A stretch of DNA of 64,000 nt from Azolla caroliniana (Eukaryota; Plantae; Polypodiophyta), in contig JBHGNT010000015.1 of assembly GCA_043228905.1 (NCBI GenBank), forward strand, positions 868,001 through 932,000. The letters run 5' to 3'. The notes beneath the pieces are model-generated. The model did not search any database. It saw nothing but the letters and a program-made list of their open reading frames with translations, and had not been told where the DNA came from. Numbering within the stretch: position 1 is the first letter of the stretch; each line of letters starts with the position of its first letter. Below, in pieces: positions 46,876 to 50,481 of this stretch. Position numbers and translations under genes: made by a program.

Positions 46876-49800
46876 TTAATCATTGCAGCTTTTTTCCTTC
46901 AGAACTATAAATGGAAACTTTTGAAAATCATTCTTTAACTGTCCAAATCCAGCATTTACATCCAGACCGTGGCTGGGATGAATGTTGGTAATCAACCCAC
47001 GATCATTCAGGATCTTCCTAAAAGCCACAACCTGCAGTCGAGGCAAAATGTATCAATTGATTATTTCTGCAAGAATAACAACATCATGCAATCAACTTGA
47101 AAGAAATATCTAAGTTGCAAATCCATTTTATTGTACATTGATTGTCGAAATATGTTTTTTCATGGGAATAAAAGAAGAAAAATGTGTGTTTCCATGGGAC
47201 ACTAAATATTGGAACGGATTGATGTTCTCAAGCACACATGCACGGGTGCTTGGAAACTTCACACAAGGGGATTGAAATTTCTTATAGGCTTATTTATTTC
47301 CTTGAGTACAAAAGCCCTGCTACGAGATAAAAATCGTTTCATCCTTTATTTTCTCATTTCAGTGGTGTTAGCATGAACATCATCACCATCAAGAAAACCC
47401 ACAAATTATTACCAATATTGAATAACGCATGAGCACTATTCACATATACCTGCTAGGATTAAATGCATTCAACTGATTTTCGGTGACAAAACTAGAGAGA
47501 AGAATAAGAAAATCAAAGACGATGAATGAATTGATGTAGAGGAAATGACTATCAAGTATTCATGTTTCATAAGAAACACCAATAAACTTACCGCAGACTT
47601 GAAAGGTCTTTTGAATTCAGAATCTGATATTGGATTGTACAGAGTTAAATTCACAATGCCTCCAAGACTCCATTCATGCAATAAATTAGCAAGCTCCATA
47701 GCATGATGTTCTCCATCGTTAATACCAGCTGAAGCAGCCACCATATTTCAATAGTTTCATCTAAACCAACTTAAAAGGAAAATATATATAACATGTATCT
47801 CATACCCAGTAGTGTATACTCAAAAGAGGGTTTCTTGTTTGTTATTGAGAAATACTTTTTGCAATCTGACATTAATGCATCTATTGGATATGATTTAGCA
47901 CTTGGGACAATCTTCTCACGAAGCATCTGATTAGCAGCATGCAAACTAAGTTCCAAAAATAAAAAAAGTTTACATATGAGGATGTCTGTGGTAATTCTTC
48001 TTCATGTTTATATCAAATGGAGCTTAACAAATTTCAAAAGCATTCATACCTCACAGACAACGTGGACTTGAGCTTATTTTGGGCAAGTTTTACAATCTTA
48101 TTTGGAATACCCACCGTGGCTATAGTCATCATTTGTTGGGGAATCCCAATATCCTATCAATGATTGATCCGATTACCCTCTGATAATCTTATACAGTTTC
48201 TCAATATTTATATTAAGAACTACGATGAATAAGTAGTAGACTTTACGATCACCTCATTCAAAGAACGATGAGCTGCCAAGACGGCAGGGAGATTAAGCAA
48301 AGGTTCGCCCATCCCCATAAAAACCACACTTGACACTTTGTGCTTGAATAGTTGTTCTATTGTTAACACCTGGATATAGGATTCACCATTTTCAATTCAC
48401 AGACAGTTTTTAATCCTAAATGCACCCTGAAAAGAGGAAAGGTTAAGTGAATAGTCATTGTGAAAGAGATTTACCTGATCAATGATTTCATGAGCTTTAA
48501 GATTACGAGAATAACCTCCCTTTCCAGTTGCACAAAATCCACACATGAGTGGGCAGCCCACCTACAGTTTTGGCAATGACTTAGCAGACATTCGCTATGA
48601 TGAATATTGTGAGTATTTTTATATATGTGGGAAGTCACCAAAATATCCCTAATACTTTGGATATTTCGCAGAAGATCTTTCCGGTAGTGAATTTTGTTTT
48701 ACATGGGAAGTTTTGGTAAATACCCAACAAGTTAAGGGTATTTTGGTGCTTCTCCATGTATTACATTTGTAGTTCAACAACAGCAGCAATGATATACCAA
48801 GAAAAATTGTAGATGAAAGATTAACCAACACATATGACTGAAAAAGCAAAGCAAAAGATAGCATTCAAATTAAGCATGTTTTTAATTAGCTAGTTTTAAA
48901 GTAGAAATAAAACCTGCGTTGATACACAGACAGTGAGTTTATTGATACCACGTGCTTCTTCCACTGGAATTCCAACAGCCTCAATGATTTTAGAGTCCTC
49001 CAACTTCAGCAAAGCCTGAATCATGAAGAAATCATCTGTTATCTAATATGTAACAGAAGATTTTATTCATTTGTTTTCTCTTGAATTGCTATTCTATTAA
49101 TTTTGTTAATTAATGGCTGCTGTGCCAATAACAATTTTTTTGCCACCTTCAGTGTCCCATCGGTAGATACAAACGTCTGGTGAATCTCTGATCGGCCAAC
49201 TTTCCAATTCTCAGCTTCTAAACGCTCACGGAAACTTTGTGGTACTGGATTTATGTTGCCAATCCATCCCAGCTGTAAGCTATTATTCTATCCATATACA
49301 ATCATATTTCAAAAGAAAACAAAAGATCAGGTTGAATGCATACACTGAAGAAATCTATTTATATCCTTCCCCTTTGCCTTGTATAACAGCTCATGTAGGT
49401 GCCGACCACGGTACCTTTTCTGTTCCAAAGCAAGCAATAGATATACAATGAATCTAATGTGGCCAAAACCGGCTACAAAACTTAAAAAGTTACAACATCA
49501 TTTCAATTCACATTGCATTCAGCATATTCACAAAGTAGATTTAAGGGACGTATGGAACACTTCGAATCCAATTAAGACTAAACACTGGTCTAGCATGATG
49601 TTGTACTTGCATCTCTAGCAACTTCTCAATCTCCAGAATGTGAGAGGATACTCCACTCTAAAAAATATTAATCTCATAGTGTCAGGCATGTACCGATCCA
49701 TGTAAACGAAAGGAGTACATAAGTTCAACCTCAGTCAAGTGCATCTAGATCATTACCAAATATAGGAGACTCCCACACCACACCTTCCGAAAAAACCAAC

Positions 49801-50481
49801 TTAAAATGGCCTTCTCACAACCATTTTGCTGATCTTTTCTAAATGCACATGGATAGTTCAATGTACACAAAGATTCTATATCACATCATTTGACGAAATT
49901 AACTTCTGGAAATGGCTTCTTTACAACCTATTTTCTGATATTTCTAGATGCATATGCATCCATGGATAAAAATATATATACTGAAGGAACTTTTACCTTC
50001 TGAATAACATCAACTTTAGCAATAACCTTCTTACAACCAATAATTAAGATAGCATGAGGTGTGTCAATCTTATAATTTCCTACATACATATGCACATTTC
50101 AATGGATAATAAACGCTGATTTTAGAAGAAGAATAAAAAAACACATTCTCATAACCGATCTTCTGATCTCTCTACGTACACTTTCATATGAATTCGTGTG
50201 GCCAAAATGAGGAAAAAGGAAGAAAAATAAATAAATAAAGTTACCTGTTCAGAGCTTACAGCAATCTTCTCAAGTTGTTGCTTTGATCTTCCAAGAAGGT
50301 ATCTGACACCTCTACTCTTGGGTTCATGTGAGTGATCCCTGTGAGTATGCTGGGATGGAGCAGCTTCATGAGGAGGAGGAGGGGGTAGGGATATGGGGAG
50401 AGGATCTTTCTGCTCTGAGACAGGCAACACGAGGCGGCCAGACAAAGCTAGCTGGAGTTGCAGAGCAGCTGGAGCTTCCAT
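46876..50481 (-). CDS. RlmN-like radical SAM protein (plastid-type RlmN paralog) lacking the methyl-carrier Cys; about 417 aa from ATG 50481, true start uncertain
   Basis: Ten phase-consistent GT-AG exons: 50481-50245, 49419-49344, 49244-49147, 49015-48914, 48561-48475, 48369-48253, 48153-48050, 47945-47806, 47728-47592, 47031-46876. Motifs [42 protein letters not shown]-terminal [15 protein letters not shown]. Confidence 0.9.

What the first reader, a model, noticed from the sequence alone, without database searches (positions are those of the whole stretch)
46876..50481. Intact RlmN-like radical SAM gene that has lost the essential methyl-carrier cysteine
Seen: ten exons splice into an uninterrupted frame. 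It keeps CxxxCxxC (CPLMCGFC), the upstream Cys of CVSTQ, MGMGEP, SLH and the YNP Asn. The last exon reads [16 protein letters not shown], with a TTT (Phe) codon at 46947-46945. Established: RlmN/Cfr class A methylases need the Cys of RxxRGxDIxAACGQL (E. coli C355), which carries the methyl group and forms the covalent RNA intermediate. Here that Cys is Phe, both motif arginines are His, ISTVG is IATVG (SAM-contact Ser as recalled) and NLIP is NLTL. Inference: the changes cluster on methyl transfer and RNA contact while the Fe-S core and splice sites persist. That fits a maintained pseudoenzyme or a radical SAM enzyme with new chemistry, rather than an m2A methylase. A young pseudogene is the alternative.
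Basis: partly seen in the sequence, partly recalled or inferred. Interest (0 to 1): 0.8.

Follow-up and report, generated by a model that had tools for sequence, protein, structure and literature searches.

The report
Fern RlmN copy without catalytic cysteine
This fern gene is a spliced, expressed copy of the chloroplast RNA-methylating enzyme RLMNL1 that has phenylalanine in place of the cysteine needed for methyl transfer, yet related plants keep it intact, so it is likely a catalytically dead iron-sulfur protein retained for an unknown non-enzymatic job.

Summary
Confirmed. Ten GT-AG exons give an open 417-aa RLMNL1 (plastid 23S rRNA m2A2503 methylase) paralogue of a leptosporangiate fern, with Phe (TTT, 46947-46945) at the Cys355 position. 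It is not an assembly error: independent contigs under five organism labels show no change at the codon, and a further protein (P0245) reads AGFGQL. Five contig sets from five studies are spliced at the predicted joints. A second, canonical-looking RLMNL1 fragment occurs in the same runs; its Cys was not seen. The copy evolved fast (branch 0.32 vs 0.006). Changes crowd the barrel strands and catalytic loop (16 of 37 near-invariant sites vs 4 of 92); 13 of 15 Fe-S/SAM residues are kept. Among Phe-carrying relatives the core shows 9 nonsynonymous to 15 synonymous variants (omega about 0.2, incomplete tables), which argues against a young pseudogene. Already-changed pocket sites drift almost neutrally, which favours a pseudoenzyme (0.5) over new radical chemistry (0.25). 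No published case turned up in my searches. The scan noted a Cys-to-Met RlmN-like gene in another genome (e1-1290007), but not this gene. No biochemistry was possible.

The parts
50245..50481 (-). Exon 1: ATG, shortened transit-peptide-like N-terminus (2 K/R in the first 45 aa vs 6-7 in fern RLMNL1), start of the N-terminal helical domain
   Evidence: X9 contig covers 50245-50427 and abuts exon 2 in record coordinates
49344..49419 (-). Exon 2: [14 protein letters not shown]86H at a position invariant in 108 of 108 homologues
49147..49244 (-). Exon 3
48914..49015 (-). Exon 4: E149 (E. coli E105), K163 (R114), C167 (resolving C118, kept)
48475..48561 (-). Exon 5: CxxxCxxC cluster motif CPLMCGFC (C174, C178, C181) and F180
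48253..48369 (-). Exon 6: MGMGEP kept; N172 equivalent is Ser
48050..48153 (-). Exon 7: R206 equivalent is Gln246, S211 equivalent is Ala251; first two bases of the SLH Ser codon
47806..47945 (-). Exon 8: SLH kept; RRVSFEY is KKPSFEY
47592..47728 (-). Exon 9: HHVNLIPYNP is [10 protein letters not shown] (I309 equivalent is Thr; N312 kept)
46876..47031 (-). Exon 10: eroded catalytic loop [16 protein letters not shown] and stop codon
46945..46947 (-). TTT (Phe395) at the methyl-carrier Cys position (E. coli C355, Arabidopsis RLMNL1 C398)
50498..50738 (.). 81-bp x3 tandem repeat ending 17 nt before the ATG; role unknown

Best explanation
This gene is a spliced, expressed fern duplicate of the plastid rRNA methylase RLMNL1 that carries Phe for the methyl-carrier cysteine and is likely a catalytically dead (pseudoenzyme) protein that likely still folds and binds its [4Fe-4S] cluster and SAM. 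Shown: gene structure, splicing, the Phe in several relatives, the fast branch, the clustering of changes and the synonymous excess. Inferred: after an old duplication a canonical sister kept the m2A2503 job; this copy lost Cys355, then its RNA-reading residues were released from selection (R114K, N172S, R206Q, R344H, R347H/Y) while the fold, cluster ligands and most SAM contacts stayed under purifying selection. Six of the ten lost invariant arginines became lysine and net positive charge is kept, so the most likely job is non-catalytic and loosely RNA- or ribosome-associated (an assembly helper or a competitor of the active copy). By analogy with Cfr C338A it would bind SAM without cleaving it. 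Plastid targeting is uncertain because the N-terminus is shortened and less basic.
For: Cys is essential: RLMNL1 C398A does not restore m2A in Arabidopsis (PMC10838301 passages); Cfr C338A binds SAM but does not cleave it (PMC3702613 passages). Cys in 232 of 244 homologues; the other 12 have truncated or read-through ends. Splicing in X9, X10, X17, X7 and X14; no intron-skipping joints in DNA runs X2, X3, X20. Core 9 N: 15 S, omega 0.17-0.22, p <= 3e-4. Ancestrally invariant sites 4 N: 12 S, omega 0.12-0.15. About 110 replacements on the branch with no stop, where 6.6 stops would be expected if all were neutral. 16 of 37 near-invariant sites changed in barrel strands and catalytic loop vs 4 of 92 elsewhere; 5 of 9 RNA-proximal vs 2 of 15 Fe-S/SAM residues. 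Already-changed sites vary at omega about 0.7 (4 observed, 5.8 expected), as expected for a released pocket. A canonical-looking paralogue fragment lies in X2 at the same depth as the gene (17.5 vs 17.4) and is spliced in X9. Inactive RlmN variants can compete with the active enzyme (PMC5062987 passages).
Against: No protein, localisation or activity data. Variant tables were cut (40 of 158 rows; 40 of 72) and omit differences near piece ends. X17 alone gives omega 0.19 (p 0.007), but 0.37 (p 0.053) if 4 unlisted differences are all nonsynonymous. X20 exon 10 alone (4 N: 1 S) fits neutrality. The released-pocket estimate rests on 4 events. C118 and E105, which have no known use without Cys355, are kept, and RlmN C355A still cleaves some SAM; both fit catalysis. 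Loss of RNA-reading residues weakens the competitor role. The paralogue's Cys was not seen. No relative outside this close group was found.
Confidence: 0.5

Rival explanations
1. Neofunctionalised radical SAM enzyme: it still cleaves SAM, but the 5'-deoxyadenosyl radical acts directly on a new, probably non-RNA substrate in a remodelled pocket, with Phe395 filling the space of methyl-Cys and C118/E105 reused as H donor or base.
For: 13 of 15 Fe-S/SAM/base residues kept, including C118 and E105. All six barrel strands carry a change in or just before the strand. No variant was listed at A394G, C395F, I349T, P350L, R311K or R312K in the runs that cover them. RlmN C355A retains some uncoupled SAM cleavage (PMC3702613 citing Grove). 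Shortened N-terminus allows relocation.
Against: Pocket positions keep changing among close relatives (H384/R, H387/Y, N382/Y, I345/N, V391/A), omega about 0.7. S211 and I309 equivalents are lost; Cfr S189A (my inferred equivalent of S211) weakens activity (PMC2836569). Cfr C338A does not cleave SAM.
Confidence: 0.25
2. Slowly decaying duplicate: still transcribed and spliced but dispensable; the apparent constraint reflects selection against misfolded product or a small, biased sample, and the gene is on its way to loss.
For: Arabidopsis rlmnl1 mutants grow normally, so selection on this family is weak. Motif erosion is still progressing (R344 lost in only part of the clade). Frameshift polymorphism in the last four codons and a 3-nt deletion in exon 1 in X3. 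Tandem repeat next to the start codon. X20 exon 10 looks neutral.
Against: 4 N vs 26 expected at ancestrally invariant sites after the Cys loss. No stop, core frameshift or splice-site loss listed in 8 runs (tables cut); all nine introns spliced in X9. The duplication is old: about half of same-residue codons differ from the paralogue fragment (read by eye).
Confidence: 0.17
3. It is still an RNA methylase: another cysteine, an alternative last exon or a partner supplies the methyl carrier.
For: The scan's notes describe phage RlmN-like proteins with the Cys on a separate peptide (e1-6087911, unchecked).
Against: No Cys-bearing alternative exon or peptide in the window. Every contig that spans intron 9 joins this exon 10 (X9, X10, X17, X7). 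The tail Cys415 lies in a variable, frameshifted end that P0245 lacks. RNA-reading residues are lost.
Confidence: 0.05
4. Assembly or sequencing error at the codon.
For: One A>C difference counted in X2 and one in X9 were not among the rows shown; A>C at 46946 would give TGT.
Against: X10 and X7 have 0 differences in exon 10; X17's differences are fully listed; P0245 reads AGFGQL. The unlisted change more likely belongs to the 54-nt paralogue piece that both runs carry (inference). One base cannot explain 19 other invariant-site changes.
Confidence: 0.01

Closest known systems
RLMNL1 / At2g39670 (clade I plant RlmN-like, plastid 23S rRNA m2A2503 methylase; PMC10838301)
   Same: Same clade: sits in a 7-row fern group at 100/99 support with Pteridium, Adiantum and Ceratopteris proteins, 70-74% identical in the core. 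Keeps CxxxCxxC, MGMGE, SLH, N312 and the resolving Cys.
   Different: Phe for Cys398; 20 of 129 near-invariant columns changed vs a mean of 1.1 in 108 homologues; N-terminus shortened and less basic.
E. coli RlmN (TIGR00048; PDB 3RFA, 5HR6/5HR7) and Cfr: class A radical SAM methylases
   Same: Exons match TIGR00048 best; a model of the nearest canonical homologue P0001 matches 6FZ6, 5HR7 and 3RFA.
   Different: Lacks the Cys355/Cys338 methyl carrier and the equivalents of R114, N172, R206, S211, I309, R344, T346 and R347.
Engineered inactive variants: Cfr C338A, RlmN C355A, RLMNL1 C398A, dominant-negative B. subtilis RlmN (PMC3702613, PMC10838301, PMC5062987)
   Same: Full-length class A scaffold without methyl transfer.
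   Different: Those are laboratory mutants that keep the RNA-binding face; this is a natural gene shared by several related plants, with the RNA face eroded too.

Membership tests
Class A radical SAM RNA methylase (RlmN/Cfr) | CxxxCxxC [4Fe-4S] motif | tested here: met
   C174, C178, C181
Class A radical SAM RNA methylase (RlmN/Cfr) | Methyl-carrier Cys in the C-terminal ACGQL motif (C355) | tested here: not met
   Phe395 in the window and relatives; Cys in 232 of 244 homologues
Class A radical SAM RNA methylase (RlmN/Cfr) | Resolving Cys (C118) and E105 | tested here: met
   C167, E149
Class A radical SAM RNA methylase (RlmN/Cfr) | SAM and 5'-dA contacts (F131, M176, GE179-180, S211, SLH, I309, N312, G356; list partly recalled) | tested here: inconclusive
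   All kept except S211->Ala and I309->Thr; binding not measured
Class A radical SAM RNA methylase (RlmN/Cfr) | RNA-contact residues (R114, N172, K345-R347 from the Cfr preprint; R206 from PMC5130265; R344 recalled) | tested here: not met
   5 of 9 listed fern-invariant sites changed, plus R206Q and R344H
Class A radical SAM RNA methylase (RlmN/Cfr) | m2A or m8A formation on RNA | not testable with these tools
   needs biochemistry
RLMNL1 (plant clade I) lineage | Phylogenetic placement in the RLMNL1 clade | tested here: met
   the tree held only RLMNL1-type and cyanobacterial rows (31 of 120 hits), no RLMNL2 or RLMNL3 rows
RLMNL1 (plant clade I) lineage | Plastid transit peptide | tested here: inconclusive
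   Aligns to fern N-termini better than shuffles in 2 of 3 tests, but shortened, with 2 K/R vs 6-7 in the first 45 aa; no targeting predictor available
Pseudoenzyme | Expressed, selectively maintained homologue lacking a catalytic residue | tested here: met
   (transcript level only)
Pseudoenzyme | No catalytic activity, and a non-catalytic function | not testable with these tools
   needs SAM-cleavage assay and knockout

The most novel reading that the evidence does not exclude
A fern lineage has turned a class A RNA methylase into a radical SAM enzyme that no longer methylates through cysteine and instead uses the 5'-deoxyadenosyl radical on a new, non-RNA substrate, possibly outside the plastid: a natural escape from class A chemistry in a plant.
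Probability: 0.25. Interest if true: 0.8.

Novelty: new variant of a known kind. Interest (0 to 1): 0.55.

Why it matters
Cys355 was found in every homologue with an intact C-terminus examined here, and the Cys-less forms in the papers I read are laboratory mutants. A natural, expressed, selected Cys-less RLMNL1 would show either that a radical SAM scaffold has a non-catalytic job in plant cells or how class A methylases acquire new chemistry. The relatives form a series (Cys lost in all, R344 lost in some, R347 His or Tyr) that makes the order of steps testable. The importance is limited by the narrow distribution seen so far and by the mild phenotype of rlmnl1 mutants.

Tried and rejected
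No whole genome is held, so the canonical copy could not be read. The exon-10 word search found 5 candidates and none scored. The best 120 hits of each of two further searches held no Cys-less relative; best identities were 74% and 67%. The HMMER search of 1.84 billion representatives gave 2 hits, one of them P0245. No RNA holder was listed as such by the run search; expression rests on spliced contigs. An alternative Cys-bearing exon or peptide in the window was sought and not found: a weak tblastn hit at 45575-45677 (E 1.1) is not above shuffles. RNA editing was rejected because spliced contigs X10 and X7 match the DNA at the codon. The ESM Atlas gave no answer. The spliced protein itself was not folded; the model is of P0001. 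The bacterial promoter scan was uninformative for a plant gene. The residue map was off by one at E. coli 169-180 and was redone. The primary structure papers (PMC3506250, PMC5629962) are not held. Literature searches listed no natural Cys355-less plant RlmN; only listings were seen for most hits, and supplements (for example Supplementary Fig. 6 of PMC10838301, or fern genome gene-family tables) were not read and could mention it.

Full report
Observation. Ten minus-strand exons between 50481 and 46876, joined at GT..AG introns of 77-825 nt, give an open frame of 417 aa. The codon at 46947-46945 is TTT. Five of eight exon stretches match TIGR00048 RlmN, best E 1e-25. No whole genome is held for this window.

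Identity. The best 120 hits to exons 5-7 are plant RLMNL1 (At2g39670-type) and cyanobacterial-type RlmN proteins, with ferns on top. In a tree of 31 of these plus the window's protein, it falls in a 7-row group (100/99) with Pteridium, Adiantum and Ceratopteris proteins. The organism is therefore a leptosporangiate fern; I did not determine the genus. Its end branch is 0.32 against 0.006 for the nearest row P0001 (74% identical; the pairing has weak support, 91/74). Arabidopsis RLMNL1 methylates plastid 23S rRNA, keeps the Cys as C398, and C398A does not complement (PMC10838301, passages). Of 244 stored homologues, 232 have Cys in this column; 10 have a gap and 2 a Val, all with truncated or read-through ends.

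Not an error, and expressed. The run search listed 20 holders under eight labels for organisms plus one plant metagenome; I laid 8 of the 23 listed runs. X10 (label D) and X7 (C) have no difference over exon 10. All 12 counted differences of X17 (G) are listed and none touches the codon. X20 (H, DNA, 63 differences in about 1140 nt) lists none there; X2, X9 (A) and X3 (B) list none, though that table was cut. One A>C counted in X2 and one in X9 were not shown; I infer that they belong to the paralogue piece both runs carry. An independent protein, P0245, reads IRPSYGLDANAGFGQL. Contigs of X9, X10, X17, X7 and X14, from five studies, skip exactly the predicted introns: X9 has eight listed joints and its exon 1 piece abuts exon 2 in record coordinates. 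DNA runs X2, X3 and X20 show no such joints. X14 does not cover exon 10. Contigs cannot give expression levels.

A second copy. Contigs of X2 (DNA, depth 17.5 against 17.4 for the gene) and X9 (spliced) lay on 48485-48538 with 7 differences in X2 and run on into sequence that reads SQVGCPLRC and VDQVLTMEEL, canonical at three places where the window's gene deviates (read by eye). About 17 of 32 same-residue codons differ, assuming the 7 middle differences are silent, which suggests Ks near 0.9 or more (crude). I take this as the active sister of an old duplication. Its Cys was not seen.

Where the changes are. The protein differs at 20 of 129 columns that are at least 95% invariant in 108 full-length homologues; those homologues differ at 1.1 on average, at most 10. 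On the secondary structure of a model of P0001 (mean pLDDT 83.7; best matches 6FZ6, 5HR7, 3RFA), 16 of 37 such columns in the six barrel strands, the three residues before them and the C-terminal strand and loop are changed, against 4 of 92 elsewhere (p 3e-7; classes drawn after seeing the data). In E. coli numbering, 5 of 9 fern-invariant residues listed as close to the RNA base in a Cfr preprint (10.1101/2025.09.18.677109, passages) are changed, as are R206, which binds tRNA G29 (PMC5130265, passages), and R344 (role recalled). Only 2 of 15 cluster, SAM and base residues are changed (S211A, I309T; the list is partly recalled); C118, E105, GE, SLH and N312 remain. Background is 37 of 225. Ten of 18 invariant arginines are replaced, six by lysine, and net positive charge is kept. 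The N-terminus is homologous to the fern transit peptide but shorter and less basic, so targeting is open.

Selection after the Cys was lost. All relatives that cover the codon carry the Phe, so their differences postdate its fixation. Pooled distinct variants in residues 57-404 are 9 nonsynonymous and 15 synonymous, omega 0.17-0.22, p <= 3e-4; over the whole protein 14 and 16, omega 0.25-0.33. Counting changes on the window's own lineage fairly, ancestrally invariant sites have 4 nonsynonymous against 26 expected, whereas sites already changed have 4 against 5.8 expected. The fold is conserved and the pocket drifts. Limits: only 40 of 158 and 40 of 72 rows were shown, differences near piece ends are not listed, X17 alone falls to p 0.053 in the worst case, and X20's exon 10 (4: 1) fits neutrality. 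About 110 replacements accumulated on the branch without a stop, against 6.6 expected if all were neutral.

Mechanism. In class A enzymes SAM first methylates Cys355, and the radical formed on that methyl group attacks the adenine (PMC9692996, passages). Phe cannot do this, and no Cys-bearing alternative exon or peptide exists in the window (a test prompted by note e1-6087911). Cfr C338A binds SAM normally but does not cleave it, while RlmN C355A keeps some uncoupled cleavage (PMC3702613, passages). I commit to a pseudoenzyme (0.5): a folded Fe-S/SAM-binding protein with a basic but no longer base-specific surface, kept for a non-catalytic role near RNA or ribosomes. Inactive RlmN variants can block the active enzyme in E. 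coli (PMC5062987, passages), but those keep their RNA face. New radical chemistry (0.25) is favoured by the kept C118 and E105 and the strand-by-strand remodelling, and disfavoured by the continuing drift of pocket residues. Slow decay (0.17) remains possible because loss of RLMNL1 is mild in Arabidopsis.

Novelty. My searches listed no natural Cys355-less plant RlmN. The passages read in PMC2836569 name one probably inactive member, which lacks the cluster motif instead. Supplements were not read. The scan has noted a Cys-to-Met RlmN-like gene in another genome (e1-1290007, unchecked by me), and a note on this genome also calls it fern-like (e1-10663519); nothing was noted on this gene. It fails the defining test for a class A methylase but belongs to the RLMNL1 lineage. 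Verdict: new variant of a known kind, interest 0.55.

Noticed in passing
window 50498-50738: An 81-bp unit in three copies ends 17 nt before the ATG; only these three copies occur in the window; DNA runs X2 and X3 show joints going back 77-78 nt here. It holds an out-of-frame upstream ATG whose frame stops inside exon 1.
   Followed up: partly
window 46889: Four runs (X9, X3, X17, X20) have one more base in a homopolymer run, and P0245 ends KEKKLQ, so the window's tail KEKSCND is probably the derived frameshift variant.
   Followed up: yes
window 48485-48538 (contigs of X2 and X9): A second RLMNL1-like gene lays here with 7 differences in 54 nt; its loose ends read canonical at three positions where the window's gene deviates, and are spliced in X9.
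   Followed up: partly
runs X3 and X7: Two haplotypes in places, one matching the window and one with 6-24 differences per piece, as in a hybrid or polyploid.
   Followed up: no
window 51779-56052: Ty1/copia-type retrotransposon remnant (RVT_2 hit) broken by stops, about 1.3 kb upstream of the gene.
   Followed up: no
window 29396-31075: A 559-aa open frame with no Pfam match at E 0.01.
   Followed up: no
window 5204-62488: Ordinary neighbours: Hsp70 (14329-16517), DUF1677, DUF1635, DUF1824-like, an eIF3 subunit exon and a zf-RVT fragment.
   Followed up: no
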